A DNA stretch of 64,000 nt from Phallusia mammillata (taxonomy: Eukaryota): contig OZ281501.1 in the NCBI GenBank assembly GCA_965637545.1, forward strand, positions 8,990,001 to 9,054,000, written 5' to 3'. Of this stretch, positions 6,001 through 27,000 are shown in pieces (position 1 is the first letter of the stretch; the number at the start of each line of letters is the position of its first letter). Made by a program: the position numbers.

Positions 6001-9000
6001 GAAGTTAGACAATGCTGGACGTTGTGTAAAGGCAGAAGATTGCCCATGTTACTCACCAAATGGAGTTCTGATTCCTCCAGGTAGTACTATAGTTGAAGAG
6101 GGCCAGGAATGTCTATGTTTTGGAAACACCCTAGAGTGTTCATCCGTTTCTACAACAATCAGCACTGTGGTAGGCAAATTTTCTTTTTTAGGTTTGTAAA
6201 ATTCTTTTAAAACTACAAAGTTTTGGGTACCTTTGTAAAAACAAATTTAAATCCACAAACAGTTCTAGTTTCATAAACATATATTGCAACATACCAATAT
6301 AATGTTTTAATTTTATGCCAGTAAGTTCTGCTTTTCTGATTTAATTACAAAAAAACAAGAACAGTGTCTTGTAGGCTGAAACAACTGCAACTACTGAAGC
6401 AGAGGTAACAACAATGTATGATGATTGTGTGTGGTGGGCCGACTGGCACAATATACGTTCACCAAGCAATGAAGCAGGTGATGATGAAGAGGGAGTTTCA
6501 GAACACACTGCAGTATCCGACTGCAAGTCACCTGTTGCAATTGAGTGCAGAGTTGCAGGATATGGTATTTCGTACCTTAGGTAAGTATTCTTTAATGTGT
6601 TGTTTCTTTTACCAGAGAAGTAGGCTAAAATAATTTGGTGTTTCTTTTTTGTTAGTATTGCATTGTCGTTGTGCTAAATTTCTCATAAGCTGGAGTTAAG
6701 TTGAACTTATGCATGTACAATGTATTCTATTGGCAGTTATCTGTTGTGTTTTTAATGTTTTAATATCACCATATTGTTTTTTTTAGATCTGGACAGAACG
6801 GTGTCCTTTGTGATCTCAAACATGGCCTGCAGTGCATTGGATTAAGGTTGTCAGGCAATATACCTAAGTGTTATGATTATGAAGTACGACTTGGATGTTA
6901 CAATGAGAGTTGCATTGTTACTACAGCTGCCACAACTCTTGGTGTCTCCAGCTCAACACCAGATGAAACCACGACAGCAAAAGTAGGCTGTAAAAGAAAT
7001 CTGCACATTTTTCATTTTTAACAAACTGATTGATTTACAGGTGACAACAGAACAAACAACTGAAACAATTAATCCATGCCCTAACTCTACAATTACCACC
7101 CCATGTCATGGATGTATGGTCAATGAATATTGCCACAATGGTGAATGCATCACAGTGGACAAATGCCCATGCATGATTGATGGAATAGCTCATGAGGCAT
7201 GTCATTTTTATGTCTATATTCTTTAATCTTTAGAACTTAAAATTAGTAAAGCTTGAGTCTTTTAGGTAATGTCCATACCAATTTTTTGACAAATGTTTTA
7301 CAGTTTTTGATTTTGATAGCTAGATTGAGTGATGACGTTGCCTTATTATTTATGTCTATTGTTATACCCTTACAAGTAAAGTACAAGTTAAGTACCAGCA
7401 CACATCAAATGAAAACTGCTACCTAACATTTTTCATTTTTAAACTACAAGTTTTGGCCCATATATTTTTACTCTGATAACGAAAAGAAAACTTTTTGAGT
7501 GTTTATTTCAGTGTTCAATTATTCGAAATATTGTGAAATTTATACAAGTGGGCTTTACAATCTCACTATTGTTTGGCCCATTCATTTCCTCACAACAATT
7601 TACCGTACCAGACTGGCATCTGCTGAAATGCACCTGCCAACCTTTCACTTCAGACAATCACTAGTATACTCATCATTAGGTCACCAAACAACAGAACTTT
7701 TTTTACTGATCTGGATTTCTTAAATACTGAAAAAATGTGCTTTTGTATGTTAAATCTAATTTGTTCTAAAAAAAATTTGTTTTTTAGGTCAACAGTATTT
7801 GGAAAAATTCTGCTCCATTATGCACCATATGTACCTGTTTTAACAATGTTGCACAGTGTGCACCACAGACATGTAACATCACTAGTGCAGACTGTTTATT
7901 TTCTGAAACATACAGCAAATCAGAAAATGAGTGTTGTGGCACGTGCAACTGTGCATGCATTGATGGAGAAAGAAGATGTGGATATGAAGGATGCGACTGT
8001 ATACCAAATGAATGGTGGTGTGATGGTTCGATAGACTGTCCAGATGGTTCTGATGAAAACCAGTGCTTTGAAACAACTCAACAACCAGTCAAAACAACCA
8101 AGATAACAGGGTGTGAAATTGATGGAGTGCATGTCGATGTTGGTGAGGAGTTAGTTAGTGACGTTTGCCACACAGCCGTTTGCATCAAAACCGGTGTGTT
8201 TGAGAAACGATATACTTGTCCCACGACCCAAAGCACCAAACCAATGGAAACAACCAAAGCCACCAAAACTACAACTGAAGAGCCTGGTTGCATGTACAAC
8301 GGCGTGCAGGTTGCTGTCGGAGTTGTTGTCGAAAACGGAACTTGTTACAAAGTTGTTTGCTATCACGACCGTGTTTTCAGGAAAGAGAGTACCTGCACAA
8401 CTCCACATAGTGTCAGTGACACAACTACACTTGGCACAACTGAAAATGTAGAAACAACCACTCGTGCTATTTCAGGCTGTTTGGTCGACGACGTGCTTCA
8501 TATGGATGTCGGAGCAGAAGTTGTTATCGACGCTTGCAACATTGCCATATGTATCAATGATGGTTTATACGAAATACGATACACGTGCAAAACACCGGAC
8601 ACCACTCCGATTACGGAAACGACCACCATTGAGAACGGATGCATCCACGACGGAGTACAGATTGCTGTTGGTGTTGTGATCGAGAATGGTACTTGTTACA
8701 AAGTGGTTTGCTACCACAACAATGTATTGAGAAACGAGACCACATGTACTACTCCACCTCAAACATCCACAGAACCGGATACAACGGCCATCACTGGTTG
8801 CGAAATCGATGGAGAGCATGTCGACGTTGGTGATGAGTTGGTTACTGACGATTGCCACACAGCCGTTTGTATTAAAAACGGTGTGTTCGAGATACGATAT
8901 ACTTGTCCCACGCCTGAAAGCACGAAACCAATGGAAACAACCAAAGCTACCGAAACTACAACTAAAGAGCCTGGTTGCATGTACAACGGCGTGCAGGTTG

Positions 9001-24000: not shown

Positions 24001-27000
24001 TACGATATACTTGTCCCACGACCGAAAGCACCAAACCCATTGAAACAACCGAAGCCACTGAAACTACAACTAAAGAGCCTGGTTGCATGTACAACGGCGT
24101 GCAGGTTGCTGTCGGAGTTGTTGTGGAAAACGGAACTTGTTACAAAGTTGTTTGCTATCACGACCGTGTTTTCAGGAAAGAGAGTACCTGCACAACTCCA
24201 CATAGTGTCAGTGACACAACTACACTTGGCACAACTGAAACTGTAGAAACAACCACTCGTGCTATTTCAGGCTGTTTGGTCGACGGCGTGCTTCATATGG
24301 ATGTCGGAGCAGAAGTTGTTATCGACGCTTGCAACATTGCCATATGTATCAATGATGGTTTATACGAAATACGATACACGTGCAAAACACCAGACACCAC
24401 TCAGATTACAGAAACGACCACCATTGAGAACGGATGTATCCACGACGGAGTACAGATTGCTGTTGGTGTTGTGATCGAGAATGGTACATGTTATAAAGTG
24501 GTTTGCTACCACAACAATGTATTGAGAAACGAGACCACATGTACTACTCCACATCCGGGAACATCCACAGAATCGACTCCAACGGCCATCACTGGTTGCG
24601 AAATCGATGGAGAGCATGTCGACGTTGGTGATGAGTTGGTTACTGACGATTGCCACACAGCTGTTTGTATTAAAAACGGTGTGTTCGAGATACGATATAC
24701 TTGTCCCACGCCTGTAACCACGAAACCGATAAAAACAACCGAATCCACAGAGGTCACGGACACAACTGAAACTATAACTAAAGAGCCTGGTTGCATGTAC
24801 AACGGCGTGCAGGTTGCTGTCGGAGTTGTTGTGGAAAACGGAACTTGTTACAAAGTGATTTGTTTTAGGGATTATGTAATTAGAAATGAAACGACCTGCA
24901 CAACTGCATCTGTTTTGTCTTCTTCTACCACCCCTGCTGTTGGTACTACAACATCATCTCATACATCTGGTTGTATTTTCGAAAAATCGTACTACCCAGT
25001 CGGTGGAGTTCATGCGTTGGATGATGTATGCATGCTTTTATCGTTATTTCTAGCAAATGTGTTTTTTCTGATTATAATGTGTTTTAGGGTTGTGGTTCAT
25101 GCGAGTGTTTGGGAAGTGGAAAATGGAGTTGCAATACTGAAACTTGTGATCGAGAATGCATCATGTTTTCTGGCGATAGTTTCCGCACTTTTGATGGTTT
25201 AACCTTTTCCTATGATATTTGCTCTAACATCTTGGTGAAGGACTGCTATGGTCACGAATTTGAAGTGATAGGTAAGTTTCGTATTGTAGCTGTAGTCTAC
25301 TGAATTCACTGACCGGTTCATTGTTTTCGCAATTTGATGAATTCTCAAACTCGTGCTTTCAGTGTCTTTGGATTGCACATATATTCGTGGAAAACAACAT
25401 TGCAGAAAGTACTTGGATATAACCGTTGGATCTTTCAACATCATTTTGCCAAGTCGTCTTTACCTTCGCATAAATGGCCAAGCTTACCGCCTGCGATATC
25501 TCCCAAAAATTAACGGCTTGTTTAAATCCTTTGGGTGAGTGTTGGAAAATGTCAAGTACTAACAATTCTTAACTTTACAATGTTTGGATATAAAGGGAGA
25601 ATATAAGCATTGAATATGCTGGAGGCGAGATAATAGTCAGGACCGATCATTTCTACATCATGTGGAATCCAAAAACGCAACATGCAAGAAGTGTTGTTGA
25701 CGATACTTTGGCAGGTACTGAACTTCTTAGACTTACGTCAGTTATGATACACGTATTTTTTAATGTGAAGTGGTGGAGAGAAATAATATTTTTAGAATGT
25801 TATTTTATGATGTACCAAACGTTACATTACAGGTAAAACCTGTGGTTTGTGTTCGAATGATGATAGTAACCTGGAAGATGAACTTGAAATGCCTAACAAA
25901 CAGCTGGCTGAAACTGTTGACCAATTCGCGGACTCGTGGGCAGTTGCAGGTGAATCATGCGATGAACTACCAACTTGCACCGAGGAACAGCGGCTTCAGG
26001 CATTTGAATCCTGCAACCAACTAAGGTTATTTTTGGAAAAAACGTATTTTTTATTATTGTGGGATTGGCAAACATTCTTCTTGTCATACATTTGCCATTA
26101 ATTTTTTTTAAGTGGAACATTCTAGCATCTTTTCATGCATTCAAGTACGGGGATAATTTTAAGGTGAGTTACGCTCAACATTATTTCTTTCCAGAAACGC
26201 CGTGTTCTCTGATTGTGACACAGTTCTTCCTGTGGACGAGTTTTTACCGGCTTGCATGGCGTCATTTTGCGAGTGTAGCACCAACTCGTCCATGGATAAC
26301 GAACAGTGTCAGTGTGCTGTATTGGCCCAGTATGTAGAATCGTGCCAGCGACGCCTGGGAAAAGCAGTTGATAAATCATGGAGATATGATTTGGAATGTG
26401 GTAAGAATTCACTTGTGTGAGATAATGTTTTACTGTATTACCTAAATTTATAAACTGTCCGACGGCTTTTGTATGGTACATTTATGCTGTGACTGTGAGA
26501 CACCCTAAAATGGATTTAATTCAGTGGTCAGGGCACATCCTCGAATTTTATTTAGTGGTAACAGCAATGATGATTTTATGTGGCATGTTGTTGTATAGAG
26601 CCGCCATGTCCAGGCGGAGAGATTTGGCACGAATGCCATTCTGCTTGCCCAACCACCTGCCAGAACATGATGACTAGCACCCGCTATGAGATTGAACAAA
26701 ATTGCCAACCAGAATGCGTTTCTGGGTGCTTTTGCCCGGAGGGAGAAGTTTTGGATGGTGATGTGTGTAAAAAACCTGAAGAGTGCGATGAGTGTAAGCA
26801 AGAAGTGAATTAGTTGCCTTCTAACATATAATTTTGTATTTCGGCGAATGTATGCGTCTATTCAAGAAAAAAATAGTTGAATTTTTCCCTTTTAGGCACT
26901 TGCATCGGTTGGGGCGATCCTCATTACATGACTTACGACGAAAGGTATTTCCCCTTCCAAGGAAATTGCACCTATGTGTTGTCGAAACCGATTGAAGGAG

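What the first reader, a model, noticed from the sequence alone, without database searches (positions are those of the whole stretch)
8109..24899. Three-level higher-order repeat: module, A-B dimer, A-B-A'-B' tetramer, then x24
Seen: modules 1 and 3 are paralogous (22/38 identical by hand alignment) and modules 2 and 4 are paralogous (27/37). The tetramer copies are nearly identical at DNA level. The final half-unit ends in a hybrid module (B-like start, unique YKVICFRDYVI, B'-like NETTC). Inference: successive duplications of increasing size, like centromeric higher-order repeats but in coding DNA, with a relic of the ancestral dimer at the 3' edge.
Basis: partly seen in the sequence, partly recalled or inferred. 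Interest (0 to 1): 0.65.

Follow-up and report, generated by a model that had tools for sequence, protein, structure and literature searches.

The report
Nested repeats in a tunicate mucin
One 17-kb exon of a sea-squirt-type mucus protein gene encodes 98 tiny cysteine-stapled modules joined by sugar-bearing linkers; nested duplications built it and its copies stay almost identical, which is a known way for mucin genes to grow, not a new kind of element.

Summary
Positions 8109-24899 hold 98 four-cysteine modules (37-38 aa) separated by Thr/Pro/Glu-rich linkers. They form 24 units of 684-690 nt in the order A-B-A'-B', plus a final A-B half unit. All of it lies in one open frame inside an inferred exon, 7788-25025.

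A maximum-likelihood tree of the 98 modules groups A with A' and B with B' (both 100/99). Synonymous sites between the halves are saturated. Units U01-U23 are 97.1-100% identical to each other. The order module, dimer, tetramer, then recent amplification or homogenisation is therefore supported.

The terminal module is not shown to be a B/B' hybrid. Its first 68 nt are identical to array B. Its last 43 nt are an old B-family sequence about equally far from B and B'.

The gene is the C-terminal part of a gel-forming mucin: CysD domains, a PTS exon, F5/8C, VWC, LDLa, the array, two VWD-C8-TIL units, VWC and a cystine knot. A neighbouring gene places the window in a tunicate.

Hierarchical Cys-domain/PTS repeats in a giant central exon are known from MUC5B and MUC5AC. 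The unusual part is the small module, which has one detectable relative among 1.84 billion proteins. I rate it a new variant of a known kind, of modest interest.

The parts
7788..25025 (+). Inferred giant exon, 17,238 nt (5,746 codons), open throughout
   Evidence: The stop-to-stop ORF runs 7788-25202. An AG lies at 7786-7787 after a T-rich tract. A GT donor at 25026 opens a 62-nt intron, and the next ORF starts at 25088 in a VWD context. G+C is 0.46 here against 0.34-0.39 in the flanks. The splice sites are inferred; there are no RNA data.
7788..8108 (+). Exon start: C-terminal part of a VWC domain, one LDL-receptor class A module and a short unique linker
   Evidence: Pfam VWC E 1.1e-05 (profile 12-57 of 57) and Ldl_recept_a E 0.0016. 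Both are just under their curated cut-offs.
8109..8795 (+). Unit U00, the 5' edge copy, less homogenised
   Evidence: It differs from the consensus at 39 columns; 14 of these are in the first 98 nt and 9 in the last linker. Module A of U00 against array A gives dS 0.445 and dN 0.072.
8796..24593 (+). Units U01-U23, the homogenised core of the array (A, L1, B, L2, A', L3, B', L4)
   Evidence: Pairwise identity is 97.1-100%, and 37 columns vary. Reference unit U12 (16362-17051): A 16362-16472, L1 16473-16538, B 16539-16649, L2 16650-16727, A' 16728-16841, L3 16842-16889, B' 16890-17000, L4 17001-17051.
24594..24856 (+). Half unit U24, homogenised part: module A (1 difference), a divergent L1 with an 18-nt insertion, and the first 68 nt of module B (identical to array B)
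24857..24899 (+). Old 43-nt tail of the terminal B-family module; the 3' edge of homogenisation
   Evidence: 25/43 nt match B, 26/43 match B', and B matches B' at 30/43. The tail falls in the B family at 99/99, but its place relative to B and B' is unresolved.
24900..25025 (+). Unique Ser/Thr-rich linker and the first half of a Cys-rich module that continues in the next exon before a VWD domain
25088..28781 (+). Exons for two VWD-C8-TIL units
   Evidence: Pfam on single ORFs: VWD 25088-25300 (E 1.5e-4, 0.3 bits under the cut-off), C8 26163-26417 (4.9e-12), TIL 26574-26810 (1.2e-10), VWD 26877-27131 (2e-17) and 27182-27379 (4.4e-5), C8 27951-28148 (2e-13), TIL 28503-28781 (1.9e-9).
29638..32714 (+). 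C-terminal VWC-like exons and a cystine-knot exon; probable end of the gene
   Evidence: VWC 29638-29826 (E 4.1e-4) and 31624-31797 (1.1e-3). Cys_knot 32080-32268 (1.4e-3). DAN/Cys_knot 32520-32711 (3.4e-5 / 4.7e-4). A stop follows 32711.
333..7018 (+). Upstream exons of the same gene: at least five CysD domains, a 13-aa PTS repeat exon, an F5/8 type C exon and a TIL/E-like exon
   Evidence: Mucin2_WxxW was hit in 7 of 146 ORFs scanned, 5 at or above the cut-off: 333-458, 2338-2742, 3068-3334, 4307-4558, 4606-4770, 6375-6581, 6764-7018. F5_F8_type_C 5100-5423 (4.3e-8). TILa 5951-6196 (weak). The PTS repeat is at 1499-1939.

Best explanation
This is the central mucin-domain exon of a secreted gel-forming mucin-like glycoprotein of a tunicate.

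The exon encodes a beads-on-a-string polymer segment. It has 98 small all-beta modules, each probably closed by two disulfides (a four-Cys frame that resembles the N-terminal subdomain of VWC and fibronectin type I-like modules). Short acidic Thr/Pro-rich linkers alternate with the modules and are likely O-glycosylated.

The DNA was built in steps. A module duplicated and diverged into A and B. The A-B dimer duplicated into A-B-A'-B' long ago. The 690-nt tetramer has since been amplified and is kept nearly identical, by unequal crossing-over and/or gene conversion at the tetramer period. The two halves are too diverged (66-72% nt identity in the modules) to recombine with each other.

The edge copies escape homogenisation, which explains the divergent first module and the mosaic last one. 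Selection keeps the modules constant and lets the linkers vary.

Shown here: the anatomy, the tree, the divergence levels and the domain context. Inferred: glycosylation, disulfide pairing, secretion, the recombination mechanism and the tissue.
For: Anatomy and chance:
- 98 modules, 24 units plus a half unit, in one open frame of 5,746 codons. All length differences are multiples of 3.
- Offset-identity peaks lie at 684/690, far above the control.

Order of events:
- Tree of 98 modules (20 distinct): A+A' 100/99 and B+B' 100/99.
- pS is 0.87 (A/A') and 0.78 (B/B'), with pN 0.20 and 0.13, so the split is old and under purifying selection.
- Units are 97.1-100% identical.

Local exchange:
- Mean differences between units rise from 8.5 at lag 1 to about 17-19 at lags 16-19.
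- Rare linker haplotypes sit at the ends of the array.

Selection inside the array:
- Modules have 10 variable sites in 447 nt (9 synonymous changes, 1 not).
- Linkers have 27 in 243 nt (10 synonymous, 13 non-synonymous, 6 indel columns). Fisher p = 3e-6.

Edges:
- U00 module A gives dS 0.445 against array A.
- In the terminal module, 68 nt are identical to B and the remaining 43 nt are old.

Protein character:
- Linkers make up 34.8% of the array, with T 41.3%, P 11.5%, S 6.1%, E 12.1% and 922 Ser/Thr.
- All 392 Cys lie in modules. There are 75 N-X-S/T sequons, 3 per unit.

Gene context:
- CysD, PTS, F5/8C, VWC and LDLa lie before the array; two VWD-C8-TIL units, VWC and a cystine knot follow it.
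- The VWD exon is 41-53% identical to MUC2-type proteins in all 27 hits.

Host:
- The ZP-C exon of the neighbouring gene is 65-80% identical to Ciona, Clavelina, Styela and Oikopleura proteins.

Module kinship:
- Pfam VWC positions 1-38 of 57 (E 0.005) and SVWC (E 0.002).
- One relative, P0002 (a chiton protein named kielin/chordin-like), at E 1.5e-8. It aligns in module register and itself matches Pfam Fn1_2 at 2e-22.
- Modules-only hhalign gives probability 82%, E 1e-5.
Against: - There are no RNA, protein or read data. Splice sites, expression and the exact copy number are unverified.
- The gene's N-terminal part (the D1-D3 assemblies that define polymerising mucins) lies outside the window.
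- Every Pfam match of the modules themselves is below its curated cut-off (VWC 17.5 vs 27.6 bits; SVWC 18.7 vs 27; Fn1_2 12.6 vs 27).
- Two single-sequence AlphaFold models were of low confidence (mean pLDDT 47.5 and 61.4). The fold search gave no match at E <= 0.001. PDB sequence search gave nothing below E 0.17. The fold and the disulfide pattern are therefore inferred only.
- Linker paralogy between the two halves is not significant, so block duplication of the dimer rests on module order and the module tree.
- Two VWD-C8-TIL units after the mucin domain, plus F5/8C and LDLa, differ from the vertebrate MUC2/MUC5 layout.
- A single recent burst of amplification and continuing concerted evolution cannot be told apart from one genome.
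Confidence: 0.75

Rival explanations
1. The array is wholly or partly an assembly artefact: near-identical 690-nt repeats were stacked or collapsed, so the copy number and order are not real.
For: Units are 97-100% identical over 16.5 kb, which is the kind of sequence that assemblers get wrong. No reads could be examined.
Against: - 20 of the 23 core units are distinct sequences.
- Variants are spatially ordered: rare haplotypes sit at the ends, and differences grow with distance.
- There is no frameshift or stop in 5,746 codons, and all indels are 3, 6 or 18 nt.
- Both edges grade into unique sequence.
Confidence: 0.08
2. The array is real, but the protein is not a mucus polymer. The modules act as ligand-binding repeats (for example growth-factor binding, as in chordin/kielin-type VWC repeats) or as an adhesive or matrix component of another secretion.
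For: The only detectable relative was named kielin/chordin-like by its source. The modules weakly match VWC and SVWC. F5/8C and LDLa modules are binding domains in other proteins.
Against: - That name is automatic.
- The modules have 4 of the 10 VWC cysteines and match only profile positions 1-38.
- The flanking architecture is that of gel-forming mucins: at least five CysD domains, a PTS exon, VWD-C8-TIL units and a cystine knot.
- The linkers have mucin composition.
- 24 near-identical copies fit a structural spacer better than a set of specific binding sites.
Confidence: 0.12
3. The terminal module is a true B/B' recombinant, or the untouched ancestral dimer.
For: At the amino-acid level its end shares a short motif with B', including an N-glycosylation sequon. 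The 43-nt tail is old. B and B' share 9 states against it, so it may predate their split.
Against: - Where B and B' differ in the tail, it sides with B' at 5 sites, with B at 4 and with neither at 4.
- Module A of the half unit and the first 68 nt of its B are 99-100% identical to array copies, so most of the half unit is not a relic.
- The tree of the tails leaves B, B' and the tail unresolved.
Confidence: 0.15
4. The repeat is non-coding satellite-like DNA that happens to be open in one frame.
For: It has higher-order-repeat geometry. Each unit also holds antisense ORFs of 163-198 codons.
Against: - One frame is open for 17.2 kb, while the other five are closed within every unit.
- Changes in the modules are 9 synonymous to 1 non-synonymous, and pN is far below pS between module types.
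- Splice signals and in-frame mucin domains lie on both sides.
Confidence: 0.01

Closest known systems
[quoted passage not shown]
   Same: - One very large central exon.
- Cysteine domains alternate with Pro/Thr/Ser-rich stretches as a composite unit repeated several times.
- The Cys domains are nearly identical between copies.
- Repeat and Cys-domain copy number varies between haplotypes.
- VWD-C8-TIL, VWC and a cystine knot follow.
Sources: passages of PMC9712336 and PMC11344006. The 1997 MUC5B super-repeat paper was seen only as a reference-list title in those two papers.
   Different: - Here the Cys unit is a 37-38 aa four-Cys module, not the ~100 aa CysD. True CysD domains exist elsewhere in this gene.
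- Linkers are 16-26 aa rather than hundreds of residues.
- There are 24.5 composite units rather than 4-7.
- The composite itself is a duplicated dimer.
- Two VWD units follow the array, not one.
XP_064614883, 'kielin/chordin-like protein' of the chiton Liolophura sinensis (P0002)
   Same: It was the only protein of 1,835,955,588 representatives to match the unit (E 1.5e-8). It has 18 four-Cys modules of 35-42 aa separated by Pro/Thr-rich linkers. The modules come in two types, including a long-short dimer repeated three times. It aligns with the unit in module register (26% identity over 193 aa).
   Different: - It is 1,055 aa, and none of the six Pfam matches at E <= 1 is VWD, C8, TIL or CysD.
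- Its hydrophobic C-terminus suggests membrane or GPI anchoring (read from the sequence).
- Its two module types and the window's A/B types separate by species in the module tree (92/91, few columns). The alternation probably arose independently.
- Homology is probable, not certain (hhalign 82%).
Higher-order repeats of satellite DNA (for example primate alpha satellite)
   Same: Monomers within a unit are diverged (54-72% nt identity between the four module types of a unit) while whole units are 97-100% identical. Edge copies are more diverged than central ones. Unequal exchange at the unit period is the standard explanation; this is general knowledge, and the search listing was seen only.
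   Different: This array is protein-coding and under purifying selection. It lies inside a gene, spans 16.8 kb rather than megabases, and has no link to centromeres.
Hierarchical coding repeats elsewhere: Balbiani ring secretory protein genes of Chironomus, and nebulin and titin super-repeats
   Same: As recalled, these are giant exons or genes built from composite units that contain smaller diverged repeats. In Balbiani ring genes a Cys-containing constant part alternates with a sub-repeat part, and identity between units is high.
   Different: The protein families and tissues are unrelated. The one search for Balbiani ring literature returned nothing usable among the 10 papers listed, so this comparison rests on memory.
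Ci-GFM1, the gel-forming mucin of the Ciona gut envelope membrane
   Same: It is a tunicate protein with the D assemblies, VWC domains and cystine knot shared with MUC2 and VWF (passages of PMC6109156).
   Different: That paper describes Ci-GFM1 as 2,880 aa with only a 50-residue PTS domain and chitin-binding domains. It mentions no module array of this kind. No sequence comparison with it was made here.

Membership tests
Gel-forming mucin (MUC2/MUC5 type) | VWD-C8-TIL assemblies | tested here: met
   Two sets lie downstream of the array. The VWD exon is 41-53% identical to MUC2-type proteins.
Gel-forming mucin (MUC2/MUC5 type) | N-terminal D1-D2-D'D3 assemblies that drive polymerisation | not testable with these tools
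   The 5' part of the gene lies outside the window. The window starts inside the CysD region.
Gel-forming mucin (MUC2/MUC5 type) | Pro/Thr/Ser-rich domain encoded by a large central exon | tested here: met
   The exon is 17,238 nt. Linkers have T 41.3%, P 11.5%, S 6.1% but make up only 34.8% of the array. A separate 13-aa PTS repeat exon lies at 1499-1939.
Gel-forming mucin (MUC2/MUC5 type) | CysD (Mucin2_WxxW) domains | tested here: met
   7 of 146 ORFs were hit, 5 at or above the curated cut-off.
Gel-forming mucin (MUC2/MUC5 type) | C-terminal VWC domains and cystine knot | tested here: inconclusive
   The DAN model is above its cut-off (24.2 vs 22 bits). The Cys_knot and VWC matches are below theirs. 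The cysteine pattern of the last exon fits a cystine knot by eye.
Gel-forming mucin (MUC2/MUC5 type) | Dense O-glycosylation and gel formation | not testable with these tools
   Only composition is available.
VWC domain (Pfam PF00093) / SVWC (PF15430) | About ten cysteines in two subdomains; score above the curated cut-off | tested here: not met
   The modules have four Cys. VWC scores 17.5 bits against a cut-off of 27.6 and matches only profile positions 1-38 of 57. SVWC scores 18.7 against 27. They resemble the first subdomain only.
Fibronectin type I-like module (Pfam Fn1_2, PF23003) | About 40 aa, four Cys, profile match above the cut-off | tested here: inconclusive
   The direct match is E 0.16, 12.6 bits against a cut-off of 27. 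The indirect link runs from the unit to P0002 (E 1.5e-8) and from P0002 to Fn1_2 (2.1e-22, 6 stretches). Modules-only hhalign gives 82%. The fold is not confirmed: pLDDT 47.5 and 61.4, and no fold match.
Higher-order repeat in the satellite sense | Diverged monomers inside near-identical multi-monomer units | tested here: met
Higher-order repeat in the satellite sense | Non-coding tandem DNA | tested here: not met
   The array is an open frame under purifying selection.

The most novel reading that the evidence does not exclude
The array is a previously undescribed type of mucin domain. In it, a strictly periodic chain of paired four-Cys beta modules, rather than a plain PTS brush, forms the load-bearing thread of a specialised tunicate secretion such as the filter-feeding mucus net of the endostyle. 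The alternating A/B modules would associate laterally to set a regular mesh. The module type would be a lineage-restricted invention whose only detected counterpart, possibly convergent, is in a mollusc.
Probability: 0.1. Interest if true: 0.6.

Novelty: new variant of a known kind. Interest (0 to 1): 0.3.

Why it matters
It is a cleanly resolved example of nested duplication and homogenisation inside a coding exon. The old steps (module, dimer, tetramer) and the young step (x24) can be read directly from synonymous divergence, and the edges of homogenisation can be placed to the nucleotide.

For mucin biology, it shows a chordate gel-forming mucin whose main repeated element is a small disulfide module with short glycosylated linkers, not a long PTS stretch. 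That layout would give different mechanics and protease resistance.

It also illustrates why such genes are missing from protein databases. Neither the exact-sequence look-up of the unit nor the search of 1.84 billion representatives returned this protein or a close ortholog.

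Tried and rejected
- Searching exon residues 1-600 among proteins of 3,160-10,056 aa found 5,630 word-sharing candidates, and none scored E <= 0.001.
- The ESM Atlas gave no usable hit for the unit.
- PDB sequence search with the unit gave nothing below E 0.17.
- Two single-sequence structure predictions had mean pLDDT 47.5 and 61.4; both were all-beta with no helices.
- A Foldseek search of the second model against PDB gave 0 matches at E <= 0.001. The fold remains untested.
- Module profiles (window only, chiton only, both) were run against 1,165 six-frame ORFs outside the array. 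Nothing was significant. The best hit was a TIL/E-like ORF at 5951-6196, E 0.009. No solitary founder module lies elsewhere in the window.
- A fourth level of repetition, at multi-unit periodicity, was looked for with the linker haplotypes and not found.
- Linker paralogy was not significant: L1/L3 p 0.20, L2/L4 p 0.047.
- An early guess that the window is lophotrochozoan was withdrawn when the neighbouring ZP gene pointed to tunicates. The guess rested on the chiton hit and on passages of PMC4948705 about F5/8C plus CysD.
As a result, no alignment-based structure prediction of a module was made.
- Exons were searched one ORF at a time.
- The literature search for Balbiani ring repeats gave nothing usable.
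- Rfam and tRNA scans of the window found nothing.
- Not checked: metagenome and viral contig collections (closed); the prokaryotic genome collection (not relevant, not used); supplementary files of PMC4948705, whose domain drawings of invertebrate and tunicate mucins may bear on whether such arrays have been seen.

Full report
WHAT IS THERE

The window is animal DNA without any N. G+C is 0.34-0.39, except for 8-24 kb where it is 0.46. One frame is open from 7788 to 25202.

An AG at 7786-7787 follows a T-rich tract. A GT at 25026 opens a 62-nt intron, after which a new ORF (25088 onward) continues a cysteine-rich module into a VWD domain. I therefore take 7788-25025 as one exon of 17,238 nt. 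The splice sites are inferred; there are no RNA data.

A pattern scan of the translation finds exactly 98 four-cysteine modules of 37-38 residues. The modules fall into four types in the fixed order A, B, A', B'. Four linkers of 22, 24-26, 16 and 17 residues separate them.

This gives 24 units of 687, 690 or 684 nt (U00-U23) and a final half unit. The repeat finder independently reports 24 copies at 98-100% identity. Identity at offsets 684 and 690 is 0.645 and 0.593, against a median of 0.246. Smaller peaks at 339, 351 and 177 reflect the half-unit and module periods. A control stretch of equal length never exceeds 0.308.

THE LEVELS

A and A' share 22 of 37 aligned residues. B and B' share 27 of 37. 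A and B share 13 of 37.

A maximum-likelihood tree of all 98 modules (20 distinct sequences) joins A with A' and B with B', each at 100/99.

Between the halves, synonymous differences are saturated (pS 0.87 and 0.78) while non-synonymous ones are few (pN 0.20 and 0.13). The dimer-to-tetramer duplication is therefore old and the modules are under purifying selection.

By contrast, units U01-U23 are 97.1-100% identical, median 99.0%. No further, multi-unit period was found.

Paralogy of the linkers between the two halves could not be shown against codon shuffles (p 0.20 and 0.047). The block duplication therefore rests on module order and the tree.

DYNAMICS INSIDE THE ARRAY

Twenty of the 23 core units are distinct sequences. 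Differences between units grow with their distance, from 8.5 at lag 1 to about 17-19 at lags 16-19. Rare linker haplotypes sit at the two ends, while one haplotype family fills the middle. This is the expected picture for local unequal exchange or conversion at the unit period.

Variable sites are five times denser in linkers (27 in 243 nt, with 13 non-synonymous changes and a 6-nt indel) than in modules (10 in 447 nt, 9 of them synonymous). Fisher p = 3e-6.

THE EDGES

Unit U00 has 39 differences from the consensus. Fourteen are packed into the first 98 nt, and module A of U00 has dS 0.445 against the array's A.

At the 3' end, module A of the half unit has one difference. Its first linker is divergent and carries an 18-nt insertion. 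The first 68 nt of its B module are identical to array B. The last 43 nt then drop to 25/43 identity with B and 26/43 with B' (B vs B' is 30/43).

Where B and B' differ, this tail agrees with B' at 5 sites, with B at 4 and with neither at 4. At 9 further sites B and B' agree against it. The tail belongs to the B family (99/99), but its branch order is unresolved.

The terminal module is thus a mosaic that marks the boundary of homogenisation at 24856/24857. It is not demonstrably a B/B' hybrid. The tail may be as old as, or older than, the B/B' split, but 'ancestral dimer' cannot be tested with one genome.

WHAT GENE THIS IS

Exons were examined one ORF at a time.

Upstream on the same strand lie:
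- at least five CysD domains (7 of 146 ORFs hit, 5 above the cut-off);
- a 13-residue PTS repeat exon (1499-1939);
- an F5/8 type C exon;
- a TIL/E-like exon.

The giant exon itself begins with the end of a VWC domain and an LDL-receptor class A module. After the array come two VWD-C8-TIL sets, VWC-like exons and a cystine-knot exon that ends at a stop after 32711.

The VWD exon is 41-53% identical to MUC2-type proteins in all 27 hits. Only proteins of 150-2,000 residues were searched. The Atlas places the exon among chordate VWD clusters.

This is the C-terminal part of a gel-forming mucin-like gene. Its N-terminal assemblies lie outside the window.

The ZP-C exon of a neighbouring minus-strand gene is 80%, 79%, 77%, 70% and 65% identical to proteins of Ciona intestinalis, Clavelina lepadiformis, Ciona savignyi, Oikopleura dioica and Styela clava. 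The window therefore comes from a tunicate that is none of these. An earlier lophotrochozoan guess was dropped.

Passages of PMC4948705 say that sea squirts carry many multi-VWD proteins, some with PTS domains. Passages of PMC6109156 describe a Ciona gel-forming mucin with only a 50-residue PTS domain.

WHAT THE MODULES ARE

The array is 5,597 residues. 65% is modules, which hold all 392 cysteines and three N-glycosylation sequons per unit. 35% is linkers with T 41%, P 11.5%, E 12%, S 6% and 922 Ser/Thr.

The modules weakly match the first 38 of 57 positions of the VWC profile, and SVWC, always below the curated cut-offs.

A search of 1,835,955,588 representative proteins with one unit found a single hit at E <= 0.001. 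It is a 1,055-residue chiton protein named kielin/chordin-like by its source. That protein has 18 four-Cys modules with Pro/Thr linkers and its own two alternating types. It aligns with the unit in module register and matches Pfam Fn1_2 at 2e-22.

With the linkers removed, profile-profile comparison of the two module sets gives 82% probability. In a joint tree the two species' modules separate (92/91, few columns). The A/B alternation is therefore probably lineage-specific.

The fold could not be confirmed. Both models were of low confidence and all-beta, and no fold or PDB sequence match appeared. Because the step that would have given a module alignment to the structure tool was stopped, no alignment-based model exists.

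HOW IT MOST LIKELY WORKS

The exon encodes the extended middle of a secreted, disulfide-polymerised glycoprotein. It is a chain of small disulfide-closed beta modules spaced by short, acidic, O-glycosylated linkers.

The DNA grew by nested duplication. It is now kept uniform, and probably variable in copy number, by unequal exchange at the 690-nt period. The halves are too diverged to pair with each other.

Shown here: the anatomy, the tree, the divergence levels and the domain context. Inferred: glycosylation, disulfide pairing, secretion, tissue and the recombination mechanism.

COMPARISON AND NOVELTY

Composite repeats of Cys domains and PTS stretches in a single giant exon, with nearly identical Cys domains and variable copy number, are described for human MUC5AC and MUC5B (passages of PMC9712336, and PMC11344006). 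The MUC5B 'super-repeat' paper was seen only as a cited title.

Balbiani ring genes, nebulin and titin are further examples, recalled from memory and not checked.

The geometry equals that of satellite higher-order repeats, but this array is coding and selected.

What is unusual is the building block: a 37-38-residue four-Cys module with 16-26-residue linkers, repeated 98 times, with one distant relative in the protein collection. The orderly double duplication inside the unit is also unusual.

I class it as a new variant of a known kind.

Searches behind 'not described': (full-text listings) and the passages read. Supplementary files could not be seen.

Noticed in passing
window 1499-1939 (+): A separate small PTS exon of the same gene: 11.3 copies of a 39-nt (13-residue) Thr-rich repeat at 86% identity. 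Two alternating variants of the 13-mer are visible in the translation.
   Followed up: partly
window 34182-40319 (-): A neighbouring ZP-domain gene on the minus strand (ZP-N and ZP-C Pfam hits). Its ZP-C exon is 65-80% identical to uromodulin/GP2-like proteins of tunicates. It was used only to place the organism.
   Followed up: partly
window 42271-43458 (+): Two ORFs match the start and the end of the PLAC8 family profile, probably a small PLAC8 gene.
   Followed up: no
window 46331-46618 (-) and 62315-62818 (-): Likely transposon remnants: a TNP-like RNase H N-terminal domain (E 1.5e-8) and a DUF7041 domain (E 2.5e-8).
   Followed up: no
window 55241-55419 and 55516-55587: Two short arrays of a 20-nt repeat whose consensus units are reverse complements of each other. 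Together they form an inverted pair of tandem arrays that could make a long hairpin (the reverse-complement relation was read by eye).
   Followed up: no
window 59208-59390 and 60162-60328: Two related 75-nt tandem repeats (2.2-2.4 copies) about 1 kb apart.
   Followed up: no
window 8565-24953 (-): Every unit of the array carries an antisense open frame of 163-198 codons. This is most simply a by-product of the codon composition of the sense strand. It was not tested as coding.
   Followed up: no
window 5100-5423 (+) and 7950-8070 (+): An F5/8 type C (discoidin) exon and an LDL-receptor class A module sit in the mucin gene between the CysD domains and the array. Two VWD-C8-TIL units follow the array. 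This layout differs from vertebrate MUC2/MUC5.
   Followed up: partly
window 24711-24728 (approx.), first linker of the half unit: The last copy of linker L1 carries an 18-nt insertion and about a dozen substitutions, although the modules on both sides of it are 99-100% identical to array copies. This suggests short conversion tracts or a hypervariable linker.
   Followed up: partly
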